From Mytilus edulis (lineage: Eukaryota), in assembly GCF_963676685.1 (NCBI RefSeq), contig NC_092347.1, forward strand, positions 5,518,001 through 5,582,000: 64,000 bases of DNA, written 5' to 3'. Made by a program: the position numbers. Positions 36,001 through 57,000 of the stretch are shown here, one piece after another. Each line of letters begins with the position of its first letter. Positions within the stretch are counted from its first letter, which is position 1.

Positions 36001-39000
36001 TTATTTTACTGTCAACCTTTTCAGACTGGTCCATTTCAGCTGATGTTGGTCTGTCTGACCGGAGAGGTGGTACCCAGTCAGACATTTTTCTGACCACTTC
36101 ATCTTGATCTTTCTGTCCCTGCATTAACTTTGTCTTCCTTGCTCGTGCTGACTCCATGGCTGATTTAGCTTTTCCTATTCCTGTTGTTGAGTAGCTTAAA
36201 TAAAAGAAAATATCTGTCATTTAATTTGATTTTATTTATTATTGTAAATATCAAATACTTTATATGCAACCTAATTTTTAAGCCATTTTTGGGGGTTCAG
36301 GATTTTTTATTACTTCCCTTTATAGCTTTAATATCTGCAGTCAATTACTTCCCTTTATAACTCTAATATTTGCAGTAACTTACTTCCCTTTATAAATCTA
36401 ATAATTTTAGTGGCTTACTTCCCTTTATAAATCTAATGTTTCCAGTGACTTACTTCCCTTTATAAATCAAATAATTCTATTGGCTTACTTCCCTTTATAA
36501 ATCTAATATTTCTAGTCACTTACTTCCTTTTATAAATCTAACATTCCAATGACTTACTTCCCTTTATAAATCTAATAATTTTAGTGGCTTACTTCCCTTT
36601 ATAACTCTAATATTTGCAGTAACTTACTTCCCTTTTGTAAATCTAATAATTCTAGTGGCTTACTTCCCGTCATAAATCTAATATATCTAGTCACTTACTT
36701 CCCTTTATAAATCTAATAATTCTAGTGACTTACTTCCAGCTATAGCAGCAGATAACACCATCTTGTCCAGTAGTAAATACACTCTGACTATCATCTGAGA
36801 AAGCTATGTTCCTCACACCACCACTGTGGTAGTCATGTGGTCTAATGGAAATGAAACGGTCCTACAAATACAAATCTCTCCATTTATCAATCTGAAAATC
36901 ATAACTGATATGATTTGGAGATCAACAAACATAAAAATTTTGAAAAGTTTTTATTGTGCATATTAAACCAGGTTCTTGGAAAACTATTTTCAAGATCATA
37001 TGAATGAAATTGTATACCGATAAGAATATGTTATCATGTTTCATAAAAAAAAATTTTTTTTAAATCTATCATGATTTGTTTATTTACTTTAAACAGAGCT
37101 GAAAATGTCATTACTTAGTAATAAATCTTTTCAAAGACTTCAAATATATCCCATAACCTTAACTGATACACATACCAAACTTCCTATAGCTCTGACTTGT
37201 ACATAACCTTAACTGATCCACATACCAAACTTCCTATTGCTCTGACTTGTACATAACCTTAACTGATACACATACTAAACTTCCTATTGCTCTGACTTGT
37301 ACATAACCTTAACTGATACACATACCAAACTTCCTATTGCTCTGACTTGTACATAACCTTAACTGATCCACATACCAAACTTCCTATTGCTCCGACTTGT
37401 ACATAACCTTAACTGATACACATACCAAACTTCCTATTGCTCTGACTTGTACATAACCTTAACTGATCCACATACCAAACTTCCTATTGCTCCGACTTGT
37501 ACATAACCTTAACTGATACACATACCAAACTTCCTATTGCTCTGACTTGTACATAACCTTAACTGATCCACATACCAAACTTCCTATTGCTCCGACTTGT
37601 ACATAACCTTAACTGATACACATACCAAATTTCCTATTGCTCTGACTTGTACATAACCTTAACTGATCCACATACCAAACTTCCTATTGCTCTGACTTGT
37701 ACATAACCTTAACTGATCCACATACCAAACTTCCTATTGCTCTGACTTGTACATAACCTTAACTGATCCACATACCAAACTTCCTATTGCTCTGACTTGT
37801 ACATAACCTTAACTGATAAACATACCAAACTTCCTATTGCTCTAACTTGTACATAACCTTAACTGATACACATACCAAACTTCCTATTGCACTGACTTGT
37901 ACATAACCTTAACTGATACACATACCAAACTTCCTATAGCTCTGACTTGTACATAACCTTAACTGATCCACATACCAAACTTCCTATTGCTCCGACTTGT
38001 ACATAACCTTAACTGATACACATACCAAACTTCCTATTGCTCTGACTTGTACATAACCATCAATACCATAACTAGCCAACCATTTACCATGTGGAGACAG
38101 TAATAATTTAGCTCCTGGTAACTGGTGTCCTGGGAACTCTGTTTCTGGTAACAAAGGCTCAGCATGACCCTAAAAACAAAAGCATTTTATATGTGATATA
38201 ACCTTCAGTTAGTTTTAGTAATATTTATGTTCTACTTCTGTTAAATCGAATGTGCATTTATAATGATTGAATACACAAATTGCAAGATATTTATAAAATC
38301 AATACATTTTACACACTTCTCACAAATATCTTGGCACTAATGTGAACAAGGTGAACTGCTATACACATTACGCCAACTTGAAGTAATGATTGATGGGGTA
38401 ATGGTAAAACATGCTTAAATGACACTTTCTACCAATTTTAAGAAGCTTTGATTTGGAGCTCCTGATGAACTGTCTGTTTACTCAAAAAAAAAATTGCAAT
38501 GTCATTAGCTAAATCATTAAAATTAATTGAAAGAAAGAAGATATTTCAGAAATGTACAGAATCTGAATGATTTCTACTAATAATGTAAAGTGAACAAAAG
38601 GACAATAAGAAGAAAGTATTCCCTTTTTGTCCTTGATACATTTGAAGTGATAAGATAGAGATATTTCCCTCCAAAACATATATTAACACACACATCACAG
38701 ATGTTATAAACAAACCCATGTCCACATCATTATACAAAATAATTAGTGGTTTCACAACATATTTGAAAAATCCACAGAGCAGACTACTATTATAAGATAG
38801 TCACCATTAGTTTGATTGTCTTTTAGTATCAGCAACATAGCAGTATTAAAGATCACAGGAAACGATTTTTAAATTTTGTTTTTATTTATTAGATATAAAC
38901 TTCTTATTTGTTTTATTCGAAAAAAATCAGAATTATTGTCAAAATCCGTATTTATATCCATAAAACCCCCTCCGAAAGTTCTGTCAGTATCGGGTGTGTT

Positions 39001-54000: not shown

Positions 54001-57000
54001 CTTCTGCTAATGTAAAATGAAAGTCGCCGATAGCACGTATGACGTAGTAGGTAAAGGGAGATCATCCAAGAGTAAAAAATACGCGGGCTATTCAAATGGG
54101 TATAAAATCGTCTTTTTTCTTATGAATAAAACGGAACATTTAAGATTGAATCCGATTTTTATCTGTTATTTATACTTATGGACACATGATAACAAGAAAT
54201 AATAATATATGGAAAATCACTTCCTGTGATCTTTAATATTATTATGATTTAAAACTGCCAATCTATCAATCCCCTTTTCTAATCTATGTAATGAAACAAC
54301 GAAAAAAAAAAACACCAAGAAAAAGCAATGATAACTCTGCTGTTAAACTTAAAATGTATTAATAGCACTATTACATCAAAATCACCAAATTCTGGTGTAC
54401 GTTCGCCGCCTTCTGCTTCAAGATACTACAAAAAATACAAATACATTTTCTATTTAACTAAATCCTTGAATGTCAGATAAAATGAAATTCAATATCTATG
54501 TTAAATAATAATTTAATTGAGGAAAAAAATAAGATTTAACAAGAACCATTGATTCCCTTGAATAATGTCTATAAGACTTGACCAGCGATTGATATGTTAC
54601 CTTCTTAGGAATCTCATCAGGCAATGATATCTGGTGTAATTTTTTGGTTTTCTGTGAAACAGCAAACAGTAGATTTCCTTCAGCCACAGCTCCTCCAAAT
54701 GATGGGATTCCAAACTTCAGTACCATTTTCTTTATTGCTGCATCTTTGAAATCACATTTCAAACTTTGGACACTCTTCCTTGGATCTGTTTAAAAAAGAA
54801 TAAAAAGATAAAGTTAGGATTTATATAAATACTTAGTGACAAGATTCTGTCATTGATAGATAAAAAGATTGGACCAAATAACTGTTTATCCTGAAAAATT
54901 TTCTTATTTTGCTTTGTAGAAAAATCAAAAACAGAACTTAATTAGGCTGCCATATCATCATTACAATTTATGGGATACCAATTTTGGTTGATTTTTTGGG
55001 GAAAGATAAACCATGAATGTAAATGTTAAGGATGTTTGCTCTTCTATTTTTTAATTTTTGCCAGATTTTCGGAATCCTCTGGTTTTATCCATGTATATTC
55101 ATAAATAAAAAATTGCCCATTAACCCCTACTTTTTTTCCATTATTTTATAACATAAAGTTTAAAAAGCCATATTTCACAATCTTATAAAATCCTTGTTAT
55201 TATTTCATAATTTTTGAAACAAAAAAGGTGCCAATGTAAAATGTATGGAAAATCTAGAGAGAATTATTTCCCGCCAAATATTCAATGGCTTATATCTCGA
55301 AAACAAGCACACGGACCCTCTATTTTTTTCTACTTTTTATTTTTTTTTATTTATTTACTATCAATTCAAAACAGTCTTTTAAAAAGCTTGTTATTTTTAA
55401 ACAGAGTAGCGAAACATCCTTTAACCCTTTCGCCGATGAGTCCCGGTTTACCGGGATTCACGCTTCAGACAGCTGACGATGAGTCCCGTTTTACCGGGAT
55501 CGGAATACCTCTTTTATGTTTCCCGCTTAAAACAGTGCAAACATGAGTTATCTTTCTTTGATGGATACCCGGATGAAAGTGTAAACATTGCGCTTCCGTT
55601 TGTTGAAAACCGTGTCAAAATCAGAGGAAATTTATGGAATTTACGAGAATTTGAAATGAGGGAACATTTTTTTTGAAAGAATATGGAAGAATTGAAGCCA
55701 AACTAGTATACTTTTTTGACATAAAATGTGGTTTTAAGTACAAAACACTTGGAATGGACATCGTTCAGTGTGAGGAATTTGTACAGCCTCATAAAAATTT
55801 TCAAAATTTTGCCGTTTTGGGTTAAAAAATTACGATTTGGGGTCAAAGAGCAGAATTTTGAGAATTTCACCTAGAAAATGCCGAAAATTTGAAAATTTGA
55901 ATATTTTAAGAAGAAAAAATTATTAAAACATGAATAAAACTGTGAACATGGTGTAAGTGAATGAAATAAATACACAAATAACTACAAACAAGTTTTTATT
56001 GACATTTATTATGAAGATCTCCCACTTGAGTAATAGTAGCCAGGGAAGCCATCGTCTCAGAGTAGCTTCTGTCTGGGCAGCAATCGGTGAAAGGGTTAAT
56101 GCAGTACACAATTTTAATTTACTTGTATGCAGACTTTGACAAAACCATGAAATAAATAGTATAATACATGTATTAAAAGACATTTCCAAGGCATTAGGCA
56201 TTCAAGTATCACTTATAATATTTTTATCTCTGCCTATTAAATTTTTGCCCTTTTAATTCTTATTTCAGGAATTTAAGTACAGCCAAGATGGTATGATACA
56301 AGATGTCATGAACAGAAATTTGATGCTGGGTGAGTCTGACATCATTTTGGGTACAGCTGAATTTCTTATATATCATTTCACCAACATACCTTTCAAGATA
56401 TCCTCTGGAAGCTCAAAATATAACAAGGCATCAGCACCATTTCTTCTGTTCCCAGAACTATTTGTTGTGATAGAAACTTTTACAACACCATTGACAGTAA
56501 ATGTTGTAATAGTCAAAATCTCCCCTTCAACCACTGTAAAAAAATAAATAATAAATATTTGATAATGACATAATTTTCTTTTTTTTATATTTTTTTTAAA
56601 ATGATATTTGATAGAACAAACAGTTAGGTTTATGATTTTAAAACAACTAAATATTTCTTAGAGATTTTAGTTTGTCCATTACCTGTGTAACCGATTGGAT
56701 TAAAGTCTTTAGAAGCCCTTCCATCTATTACAAAAACTTGTCCATTTTCTGCTCCAGCAATTAAAAAATTTCCATCCACATCATACCTGTTAACATATAA
56801 CATAAAATAAGTTATTGGAAATATTTTTAAAGTTAAAATCATCATCTGCATTTATAATATCAACAAGTGCTTACTGATAAGCAGCTATAAAGTAAATTAA
56901 ATACCTAATGACCTTCAAAATAGAAAAGAAGTAACCATTTAGTCATCAACAAACAAAAAGAATACGTTTCTATAAATTAAATAAGTTTGTGGTTGTACAA

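What the first reader, a model, noticed from the sequence alone, without database searches (positions are those of the whole stretch)
38850..54232. Complete, intron-rich Kolobok transposon with convergent transposase and P2X7-ballast-like gene
Seen: TIRs, a TTAA TSD, an 8-exon THAP-DDE gene and a 3-exon partner gene pointing inward, with AATAAA overlapping both stop codons. Established: Kolobok elements have TTAA TSDs and RR termini and encode a THAP-containing DDE transposase plus KolX. Notable here: at 15.4 kb it has host-like introns loaded with other repeats, yet all splice phases are intact. Several TTAA-flanked MITEs in the window (25329, 33963, 55030, 58565, 62671) may belong to the same superfamily, although their TIRs differ.
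Basis: partly seen in the sequence, partly recalled or inferred. Interest (0 to 1): 0.7.

Follow-up and report, generated by a model that had tools for sequence, protein, structure and literature searches.

The report
Mussel Kolobok transposon with KolX gene
A 15.4-kb Kolobok-type jumping gene sits inside an intron of a mussel cilia gene and carries the two genes typical of its family, but its transposase gene contains a stop codon, so it is an ordinary and probably disabled copy of a known kind of element.

Summary
The element spans 38850-54232 (15,383 bp). It has TTAA on both sides and AG...CT termini, and 18 of its 20 terminal bases form an inverted repeat. Two genes point inward.

- **Transposase (minus strand):** an 8-exon gene with a THAP domain and a DDE catalytic core.
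- **Partner gene (plus strand):** a 3-exon gene of the P2RX7_C / P2X7 "ballast" family. This is the KolX protein that Kojima & Bao (2022) describe for the Kol0 lineage of Kolobok.

AATAAA overlaps both stop codons. All nine introns are GT-AG and the splice phases fit.

**Correction:** the copy is not intact. Exon 2 of the transposase has an in-frame TAA (52231-52229). A near-identical RefSeq Mytilus galloprovincialis protein and 73 of 79 relatives have Gln there. That RefSeq protein has its own lesion, Arg in place of the zinc-binding His of the THAP domain.

**New here:**
- The element lies inside the host CFAP43 gene.
- A 15-mer sits 185/186 bp from each end.
- There is a nested TIR element in KolX intron 1.

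Copy number, empty sites and synteny could not be checked. Verdict: new member of a known kind, low to moderate interest. The window is mussel, not human. I did not build a joined spliced protein.

The parts
38846..38849 (.). left TTAA target-site duplication
38850..38869 (+). left terminal inverted repeat, begins AG; 12 perfect bases, 2 mismatches, then 6 perfect
   Evidence: (I9)
39034..39048 (+). subterminal 15-mer CTACGTCATACGTGC, offset 185 from the left end and 78 nt upstream of the KolX ATG
39112..39338 (+). KolX exon 1 (ATG; acidic, predicted disordered N-terminus); donor GTAAAT, phase 2
   Evidence: 75/75 complete codons identical to P0013
39959..41835 (.). nested non-autonomous DNA transposon in KolX intron 1; perfect 52-nt TIRs beginning CACTG; AAATA on both flanks
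   Evidence: (I3)
42762..42983 (+). KolX exon 2, carrying six of the seven family-conserved cysteines
   Evidence: 73/73 codons identical to P0013
44041..44194 (+). KolX exon 3 (LPSC...IR..FP motif), stop TAA 44192-44194 overlapped by AATAAA
   Evidence: Pfam P2RX7_C E 5.6e-8 for this exon's ORF alone
45029..45213 (-). transposase exon 8, stop TAA 45031-45029 overlapped by AATAAA
   Evidence: aligns to the C-termini of P0003, P0004, P0007 and P0010
47090..47238 (-). transposase exon 7 (skipped in RefSeq isoform X2, P0001)
   Evidence: 32/49 identical to P0003
47882..48053 (-). transposase exon 6, holds the catalytic E (SLESYH)
48463..48711 (-). transposase exon 5, holds the H2CH zinc finger
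   Evidence: 82/82 identical to P0001
49006..49192 (-). transposase exon 4, holds the second catalytic D (TDRH) and the DxxH motif (DVWH)
49730..50521 (-). transposase exon 3: acidic linker, CxxC...C zinc-finger-like region, first catalytic D (GGDARCC)
52217..52480 (-). transposase exon 2 (linker) with in-frame TAA at 52231-52229 (codon 209)
53592..53966 (-). transposase exon 1: THAP domain with C2CH and AVPTIF box
   Evidence: Pfam THAP E 2.5e-16
54033..54047 (-). subterminal 15-mer, offset 186 from the right end and 81 nt upstream of the transposase ATG
54213..54232 (-). right terminal inverted repeat
54233..54236 (.). right TTAA target-site duplication

Best explanation
This is one structurally full-length copy of a Kolobok DNA transposon of the KolX-encoding (Kol0-type) kind, inserted at a TTAA inside an intron of the mussel CFAP43 gene.

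How the family works (inferred, nothing assayed):
- The THAP domain of the transposase binds the element ends.
- The RNase-H-like DDE core (D, D, DxxH, H2CH zinc finger, E) cuts at the AG...CT termini and joins the element into a new TTAA, duplicating it.
- KolX, a small protein with the zinc-binding ballast fold, is an accessory factor of unknown role.

Each gene starts about 265 bp inside one end and both are transcribed inward. Both ends carry the same 15-mer about 80 nt upstream of the ATG. It is likely a shared promoter element or a subterminal transposase-binding site.

This particular copy has a nonsense codon in transposase exon 2. It is therefore most likely no longer autonomous and could move only if another copy supplies transposase.
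For: SHOWN
- TTAA + TIR + AG..CT termini.
- THAP domain: E 2.5e-16.
- The window's exons keep every motif checked, scored against a 126-sequence alignment of relatives (window residues):
  - D445: 117/122 relatives
  - D512: 124/125
  - D533 and H536 of DxxH: 123/125 and 122/125
  - H594 / H599 / C609 / H611: 112/113, 111/114, 111/114, 112/114
  - E656: 107/112
- The AF2 model of the near-identical RefSeq protein P0001 has pLDDT above 90 over about residues 300-680. Its best solved-fold matches are DDE transposases: ISCth4 (E 4.8e-6, TM 0.50 on the target), then Hermes and the P element transposase.
- KolX:
  - The three exons are 197/198 identical to P0013, which hits Pfam P2RX7_C at 2.1e-17. 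The exon 3 ORF alone scores 5.6e-8.
  - By sequence, P0013 matches only P2X7 in the PDB (4 of 4 hits, best 9e-6, residues 472-594).
  - By fold, 14 of 14 hits with E<=1e-3 are P2X7 chains.
  - Seven cysteines plus R153 and R185 are conserved in 54 relatives.
- Published match: Kol0 Kolobok = transposase + KolX, TTAA TSD, RR/YY termini (PMC9587614). The THAP/DDE/H2CH/AVPTIF motif set comes from PMC6004289.
- Nonsense codon. Gln at that column in 73/79 relatives.
- Mobile, multi-lineage family: 139 relatives at E<=1e-5. By my reading of the 120 listed, at least 17 named species have two or more separate 90% clusters. Bivalve sequences fall in at least three places in the tree.
- Host gene: 15 of 116 minus-strand ORFs hit CC_Cfap43 in colinear order from 33134 down to 5702. 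ORF 58145-58354 matches CFAP43 residues 441-494 (E 4.5e-7).
Against: - No curated Kolobok reference (Repbase/Dfam) was available, so membership rests on motifs, termini and the KolX partner, not on direct homology to a named Kolobok.
- No Xenopus protein appears among the 120 listed relatives.
- Pfam finds nothing on the DDE exons themselves: 13 of 14 ORFs gave no hit.
- Among 12 relatives only a 'Mutator-like' model appears. It is above its cut-off in 1 and below it in 4.
- KolX exon 1 and exon 2 ORFs alone give no Pfam hit even at E<=10.
- No second copy, solo end or matching MITE exists in the window, so mobility of this family in Mytilus is not shown.
- Only one 90% cluster of this exact family was found among annotated proteins. 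That would also fit a single-copy gene.
- The stop codon could be an assembly error or a private allele.
Confidence: 0.85

Rival explanations
1. The locus is a domesticated host gene pair: a single-copy, selected THAP-DDE gene plus a ballast gene that merely retain old transposon ends.
For: - RefSeq annotates near-identical proteins as ordinary genes in M. galloprovincialis (P0001) and M. edulis (P0013).
- Only one 90% cluster of this exact family was seen.
- KolX is 197/198 identical to the M. edulis protein.
- Xenopus shows many domesticated Kolobok transposases (PMC6004289 abstract and passages).
Against: - The window copy has a nonsense codon at a column that is Gln in 73/79 relatives, and Ile at a column that is Met in 98/109.
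- The RefSeq copy has Arg at the THAP zinc-ligand His (His in 52/58) and Lys at a column that is Glu/Asp in 82/107.
- Two near-identical copies each carrying different damaging changes look like neutral decay, not purifying selection.
- TIRs and TSD are still nearly perfect.
Confidence: 0.07
2. The copy is still autonomous. The stop is bypassed by an alternative in-frame splice donor upstream of it, or it is a sequencing or assembly error.
For: - In-frame phase-0 GT sites exist upstream of the stop at 52274 and 52310 and fit the exon 3 acceptor.
- The affected segment is a low-confidence linker (pLDDT about 30).
- All catalytic and zinc-binding residues are intact.
Against: - The normal donor GTAAGT after 52217 is the one used in the RefSeq protein.
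- The alternatives (GTGGCT, GTGACA) are poor donors by the usual consensus (recalled) and would delete 19 or 31 residues.
- Gln209 sits in a column conserved in 73/79 relatives.
- There is no read-level evidence either way.
Confidence: 0.1
3. It is a piggyBac-type element. piggyBac also targets TTAA, and a few piggyBac families encode a KolX-like protein.
For: - TTAA TSD.
- Kojima & Bao note piggyBac families with a protein similar to the KolX C-terminus (PMC9587614 section 12).
Against: - Termini are AG...CT, not the CCC...GGG recalled for piggyBac.
- No piggyBac transposase domain in any of the 48 ORFs of 60 aa or more or in 12 relatives.
- The transposase has THAP + DxxH + H2CH.
- KolX keeps all seven conserved cysteines. 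The paper says the piggyBac-borne proteins mostly lack them.
Confidence: 0.02

Closest known systems
Kol0 (Kolobok0) lineage of the Kolobok superfamily, type element Kolobok-1_XT (Kapitonov & Jurka 2007, as summarised by Kojima & Bao 2022, PMC9587614)
   Same: - TTAA TSD and 5'-RR...YY-3' termini.
- DDD/E transposase with C/DxxH and a zinc finger before the last E.
- A second gene, KolX, with the P2X7 ballast fold and 7 conserved Cys.
   Different: - The paper's sentence on Kol0 hosts names vertebrates, annelids, cnidarians and sponges, not molluscs.
- Here the host is a mussel, and both genes are split by introns (7 and 2).
- Relative gene orientation in Kolobok-1_XT is not stated in the text I read.
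Xenopus XKol full-length Kolobok copies (Hikosaka et al. 2018, PMC6004289)
   Same: - TTAA TSD and TIRs starting AG.
- THAP (C2CH, AVPTIF), DDE and H2CH motifs.
- Lengths of 6.8-13.9 kb, so a 15.4-kb copy is only slightly larger.
   Different: - Xenopus transposase CDSs were recovered as single uninterrupted ORFs of about 2.1-2.6 kb; the mussel gene has 8 exons.
- No Xenopus protein is among the 120 listed relatives, so the relationship is not close.
KolobokP, the Kolobok lineage described as abundant in bivalves including Mytilus (PMC9587614)
   Same: Same superfamily, same host group, TTAA target.
   Different: - No long terminal direct repeats: the longest direct match between the two terminal 800 bp is 16 nt.
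- No His-Me finger nuclease ORF: 0 of 48 ORFs.
- KolX is present instead.
P2X7 cytoplasmic ballast / nanor-like ZCD proteins (Rump et al. 2020, PMC7016195)
   Same: - Seven zinc-coordinating Cys.
- Equivalents of rat R546 and R578 are kept (R153, R185), as are A549, Y550, P570 and C572. This is the pattern Rump et al. report for invertebrate ZCD proteins.
   Different: - Free-standing 200-aa protein with an acidic disordered N-terminus.
- Encoded inside a transposon.
- H547, R574 and K583 equivalents are Y, V and S.
IS256/Mutator-type DDE transposases (ISCth4 structures 6XGX/6XG8/6XGW)
   Same: Best structural match of the predicted catalytic core (E 4.8e-6, TM 0.50 on the target). Relatives give weak Pfam Mutator/MULE hits.
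   Different: - 12-13% sequence identity.
- Bacterial.
- No THAP domain, no TTAA specificity, no KolX.

Membership tests
Kolobok superfamily | [quoted passage not shown] | tested here: met
   TTAA at 38846-38849 and 54233-54236
Kolobok superfamily | termini 5'-RR ... YY-3' (unlike piggyBac) | tested here: met
   AG...CT; criterion from PMC9587614 section 3
Kolobok superfamily | [quoted passage not shown] | tested here: met
   GGDARCC, TDRH, DVWH and SLESYH are all present in window exons 3, 4 and 6. Columns are conserved in 107-124 of 112-125 relatives.
Kolobok superfamily | zinc finger (H2CH) between C/DxxH and the last E | tested here: met
   H594, H599, C609 and H611 of P0001 are identical in window exon 5 (82/82). 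Conserved in 111-112 of 113-114 relatives.
Kolobok superfamily | N-terminal THAP domain (usual, not universal) | tested here: met
   Pfam THAP 2.5e-16. C2CH and AVPTIF are present.
Kolobok superfamily | sequence homology or phylogenetic placement with curated Kolobok transposases (Repbase/Dfam) | not testable with these tools
   No Repbase/Dfam library is held. The supplements of PMC9587614 that hold the alignments are closed.
Kol0 (Kolobok0) lineage | second gene KolX with ballast fold and 7 conserved cysteines | tested here: met
KolobokP lineage | long terminal direct repeats of about 450 or 660 bp | tested here: not met
   longest direct match between the terminal 800 bp is 16 nt; no such repeat in the self-BLAST
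KolobokP lineage | His-Me finger (I-PpoI-like) nuclease gene | tested here: not met
   0 of 48 ORFs of 60 aa or more hit any nuclease family
piggyBac superfamily | piggyBac-type DDD transposase and CCC...GGG termini (termini recalled) | tested here: not met
   no such Pfam hit; termini are AG...CT
Autonomous (coding-competent) element | uninterrupted transposase reading frame | tested here: not met
   in-frame TAA at 52231-52229
Active family in this genome | several copies with different flanks, or empty-site alleles | not testable with these tools
There is no second copy in the window.

The most novel reading that the evidence does not exclude
KolX is a guanine-nucleotide- and zinc-binding subunit that works with the Kolobok transposase. 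It would supply in trans what the related P element transposase carries as a built-in GTP-binding domain (that P element property is recalled, not checked here). The identical 15-mer placed 185/186 bp from both ends would be the site that couples the two genes, acting either as a shared promoter element or as a subterminal transposase-binding site. If so, the ballast domain of vertebrate P2X7 descends from a transposition cofactor whose biochemical job could be read from elements like this one.
Probability: 0.1. Interest if true: 0.55.

Novelty: new member of a known kind. Interest (0 to 1): 0.25.

Why it matters
The find is mainly confirmatory.
- It is a clean, TIR-bounded example showing that a mollusc gene annotated 'P2X purinoceptor 7-like' is the KolX gene of a Kolobok transposon. 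This supports the published idea that the P2X7 ballast domain came from such elements.
- It warns annotators that both RefSeq-style gene models here are transposon genes nested in a CFAP43 intron.
- The symmetric 15-mer and the well-defined ends give a concrete substrate for a first Kolobok transposition assay. My searches of the held literature turned up no paper on KolX function.

Tried and rejected
- **Transposase-KolX binding (complex prediction):** It never ran, so binding is untested.
The six members of each cluster, and therefore copy number and species, stay unknown.
- **Pfam on KolX exons 1 and 2 alone:** nothing, even at E<=10.
- **Pfam on the DDE exons:** nothing.
- **Profile of 126 relatives against PDB sequences:** only the THAP domain matches.
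- **Rfam on 38000-55000:** 0 families.
- **Paralogous empty site in the window:** none for either flank.
- **Other copies of the TIR or the 15-mer in the window:** none beyond chance.
- **KolobokP architecture and piggyBac:** considered and rejected (see membership tests).
- **Tandem-array ORF at 61950-62315 against the PDB:** no CFAP43 match, only one unrelated chain. ORF 35879-36220 gave no match.
- **Public collections:** I did not use genome contigs because it holds only bacteria and archaea.

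
Full report
**What the window is.** The window is AT-rich, about 27-40% GC in 2-kb steps, and contains no N. Its proteins are nearly identical to RefSeq proteins of Mytilus mussels. It is mussel DNA, not human. I did not build, print or search a joined spliced protein. Whole-protein comparisons used the database proteins P0001 and P0013 as returned.

**Ends of the element.**
- The 16-mer TTAAAGATCACAGGAA occurs exactly twice, at 38846-38861 (+) and 54221-54236 (-).
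- The two further matches with 2-3 mismatches are at chance level: 4 found against 1.84 expected, and 15 of 100 shuffles reached 4.
- The element is therefore 38850-54232 (15,383 bp), flanked by TTAA, with termini AG...CT. 18 of its first 20 bases form an inverted repeat.
- Read inward, the two ends share only one more block: the 15-mer CTACGTCATACGTGC at offset 185 (left) and 186 (right). It occurs nowhere else in the window, and 0 of 100 shuffles gave two matches.
- The 15-mer lies 78 and 81 nt upstream of the two start codons.
- There are no long terminal direct repeats. The longest direct match between the terminal 800 bp is 16 nt.

**Transposase gene (minus strand).**
- tblastn of the RefSeq protein P0001 and of the Sinanodonta homologue P0003 against the window gives a single colinear locus.
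- Reading the junctions codon by codon gives eight exons: 53966-53592, 52480-52217, 50521-49730, 49192-49006, 48711-48463, 48053-47882, 47238-47090 and 45213-45029.
- Exon lengths are 375, 264, 792, 187, 249, 172, 149 and 185 nt, totalling 2373 nt. All seven introns are GT-AG and the phases are consistent.
- The stop codon TAA is overlapped by AATAAA.
- Exons 7 and 8 are absent or frameshifted in P0001 (isoform X2) but align with the C-termini of homologues: 32/49 and 25/49 identical to P0003, with similar values for P0004, P0007 and P0010.
- Exon 1 is a THAP domain (Pfam 2.5e-16) with the C2CH ligands and the AVPTIF box.
- Pfam has no hit for the other exons: 13 of 14 ORFs, and 0 of the remaining 34 ORFs of 60 aa or more.

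**The frame is broken.**
- Exon 2 reads ...AAT GCA TAT ATC TAA ACA GTC CAA GTG|gtaagt. The ORF listing ends the ORF there too.
- P0001 has Gln at this codon (209), as do 73 of 79 relatives with a residue in that column.
- Over exons 1-6 the window is identical to P0001 at 670 of 677 codons, with 6 missense differences and this nonsense codon.
- Scored against the family alignment, the window is the deviant copy at codon 209 and at 677 (Ile, where 98/109 have Met).
- P0001 is the deviant copy at codon 53 (Arg at the zinc-binding His of THAP, where 52/58 have His) and at 308 (Lys, where 82/107 have Glu or Asp).
- So two near-identical copies or alleles each carry their own damaging change. This is what neutral decay of a transposon looks like. 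It argues against a selected, domesticated gene, although I have no synonymous-site data.

**Catalytic core.**
- In alignments of 12 and 126 relatives, the conserved columns are: the first D (GGDARCC), the second D (TDRH), DxxH (DVWH), the H..H..C.H zinc finger, and the E of SLESYH.
- The window's exons 3-6 carry all of them.
- These are the motifs given for Kolobok transposases in the literature. DDE, THAP with C2CH/PWF/AVPTIF, and H2CH come from Hikosaka et al. 2018 (PMC6004289, passages seen). C/DxxH plus a zinc finger before the last E come from Kojima & Bao 2022 (PMC9587614, sections 3 and 10 read).
- An AF2 model of P0001 with the 126-sequence alignment is confident: 419 of 700 residues have pLDDT>=90. 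The low segments are 92-114, 137-283 and 689-700.
- Its best solved-fold matches are the IS256-family ISCth4 transposase (E 4.8e-6, TM 0.50 on the target), then a THAP domain, PFV integrase, Hermes, and at E 1.1e-3 the P element transposase.
- By sequence, only the THAP part matches anything in the PDB.
- Among 12 relatives, Pfam 'Mutator-like transposase' is above its cut-off in one and below it in four.

**KolX gene (plus strand).**
- Three exons: 39112-39338, 42762-42983 and 44041-44194 (603 nt). Both introns are GT-AG, and the stop is overlapped by AATAAA.
- 197 of 198 complete codons equal P0013, 'P2X purinoceptor 7-like [Mytilus edulis]'.
- P0013 hits Pfam P2RX7_C at 2.1e-17. The exon 3 ORF alone scores 5.6e-8. 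Exons 1 and 2 alone give nothing.
- P0013 matches only P2X7 chains in the PDB by sequence: 4 of 4 hits, best 9e-6, residues 472-594.
- Its AF2 model has mean pLDDT 80, with 87-98 over residues 71-190. It matches only P2X7 by fold: 14 of 14 hits at E<=1e-3.
- The family is large: 2004 representatives at E<=1e-3 and 540 at E<=1e-10.
- In 54 aligned members, seven cysteines (C77, C79, C82, C93, C94, C111, C179) and R153 and R185 are invariant or at least 90% conserved.
- By the alignment, R153 and R185 correspond to rat R546 and R578. Rump et al. 2020 report these as the two GDP-contacting residues kept in invertebrate ballast proteins (PMC7016195, passages).
- Kojima & Bao state that KolX of the Kol0 lineage is this fold, with 7 conserved Cys (section 12).

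**Inside and around the element.**
- 1665 of 15,383 nt recur elsewhere in the window, in 11 segments, none in an exon.
- KolX intron 1 holds a 1.9-kb element (39959-41835) with perfect 52-nt TIRs starting CACTG and AAATA on both flanks.
- The element lies inside the host CFAP43 gene, on the minus strand:
  - 15 of 116 minus-strand ORFs outside the element hit the CC_Cfap43 profile in colinear order, from profile positions 36-78 at 32982-33134 down to 821-868 at 5702-5986.
  - ORF 58145-58354 matches solved CFAP43 chains at residues 441-494 (E 4.5e-7).
  - The insertion is thus intronic, with the transposase gene in the host gene's orientation.

**Is the family mobile?**
- I could not test copy number, empty sites or synteny.
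- Indirect evidence comes from relatives. They are found in bivalves, gastropods, a nemertean, echinoderms, a hemichordate, amphioxus, teleosts, cnidarians, a sponge, a tick and a priapulid: 139 at E<=1e-5, of which 120 are listed.
- By my reading of that list, at least 17 named species have two or more separate 90% clusters.
- In a FastTree of the core, bivalve sequences fall in at least three separate places, and P0001 groups with an unnamed sequence and then three Sinanodonta paralogues. Of 126 sequences, 121 were used; 5 were dropped for having fewer than 240 residues in the core. The tree is midpoint rooted and supports were not inspected.
- For this exact family, only one 90% cluster was seen in Mytilus. 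The other Mytilus hits (P0029, P0125) are 44-45% identical.

- 58561-58841 is clear: TTAA on both sides and a 15/16 TIR beginning GG.
- 25325-26021 (13/20) and 33959-34510 (14/20) are plausible.
- 55026-55424 fits only with a 1-nt offset. It abuts a further MITE at 55421-56099 with CCC...GGG ends, which is piggyBac-like (that trait is recalled).
- For 62667, none of the 18 downstream TTAA sites tested gave a partner (best 9/20).
- None shares the Kolobok TIR.

**Comparison and novelty.**
- Everything testable fits Kolobok, specifically the KolX-bearing Kol0 type. It does not fit KolobokP (no LTDRs, no His-Me nuclease) or piggyBac.
- The Kolobok-KolX-ballast link is already published (PMC9587614). 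Kolobok elements are catalogued in bivalves: 43 curated consensus elements in Martelossi et al. 2023 (PMC10294476, passages).
- My searches found no paper describing a KolX-bearing Kolobok in a mollusc. The Kojima & Bao sentence on Kol0 hosts does not list molluscs. Their supplements, which I could not open, may include such elements.
- At 15.4 kb the copy is slightly longer than the longest of ten Xenopus full-length copies (13,907 bp).
- The seven introns differ from the single-ORF Xenopus transposases.
- Two gene models in other molluscs break exactly at window exon junctions: Patella P0005 ends at the exon 4/5 junction, and Sinanodonta P0003 has an unaligned insert at the exon 6/7 junction. 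In addition, 11 of 150 listed KolX relatives end or begin at the exon 2/3 junction. Together these suggest the introns are old features of the family. This is inference only.

**Verdict.** This is a real, structurally complete but coding-defective copy of a known kind of transposon. It is useful as a worked example and not surprising.

Noticed in passing
window 5702-33134 and 58145-58354, minus strand: Host gene CFAP43 (cilia- and flagella-associated protein 43). 15 colinear exon-sized ORFs hit the CC_Cfap43 profile, and one upstream ORF matches solved CFAP43 residues 441-494. The Kolobok element sits inside this gene.
   Followed up: partly
window 39034-39048 and 54033-54047: An identical 15-mer lies 185/186 bp from each element end and about 80 nt upstream of each inward gene's ATG. 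It is the only shared block besides the TIR. Both ATGs are also preceded by AGT.
   Followed up: partly
window 39959-41835: A nested 1.9-kb element with perfect 52-nt TIRs (CACTG...) and further internal inverted repeats. AAATA is on both flanks and there is no Pfam-recognisable ORF. It looks like a recent insertion into KolX intron 1.
   Followed up: partly
protein P0001 (RefSeq M. galloprovincialis isoform X2) compared with window exons: The RefSeq model skips window exon 7 and reads exon 8 in another frame (C-terminus ...LCSRTIPGSAVQKGASKELQ). It also has Arg at the THAP zinc-ligand His. It is a transposon gene annotated as a host gene.
   Followed up: partly
window 59974-62253: An 87-bp tandem array (26 copies, 99% matches). 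Its minus-strand translation is a 29-aa unit that scores as WD40 in Pfam (2.1e-14). It is possibly an amplified fragment of a CFAP43 propeller exon. A PDB search of its upstream part found no CFAP43 match.
   Followed up: partly
window 17757-19280, 30119-32373, 37152-38058, 57088-57734, 13201-13749: Five further minisatellite arrays (periods 40, 45, 50, 46 and 68 bp; 8-50 copies; 92-98% matches), all within the CFAP43 gene span.
   Followed up: no
window 1229-4193, plus strand: A non-LTR retrotransposon remnant. Reverse transcriptase (RVT_1) is split over two frames, followed by a zf-RVT domain.
   Followed up: partly
window 55421-56099: A TTAA-flanked 680-bp MITE with CCC...GGG ends (17-nt TIR, 94%). 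It is piggyBac-like rather than Kolobok-like and shares its left TTAA with the neighbouring MITE at 55026-55424.
   Followed up: partly
window 39647-39747, 44269-44383, 45369-45450, 48760-48879, 49597-49674: Copies of one short interspersed repeat (core ...TGGTATGATTGCCAATGAGACAACT...) lie in both orientations in several introns of the element. It was not classified.
   Followed up: no
window 52385-52455: A 36-bp tandem duplication inside transposase exon 2. It duplicates a 12-residue acidic linker motif and is also present in P0001.
   Followed up: no
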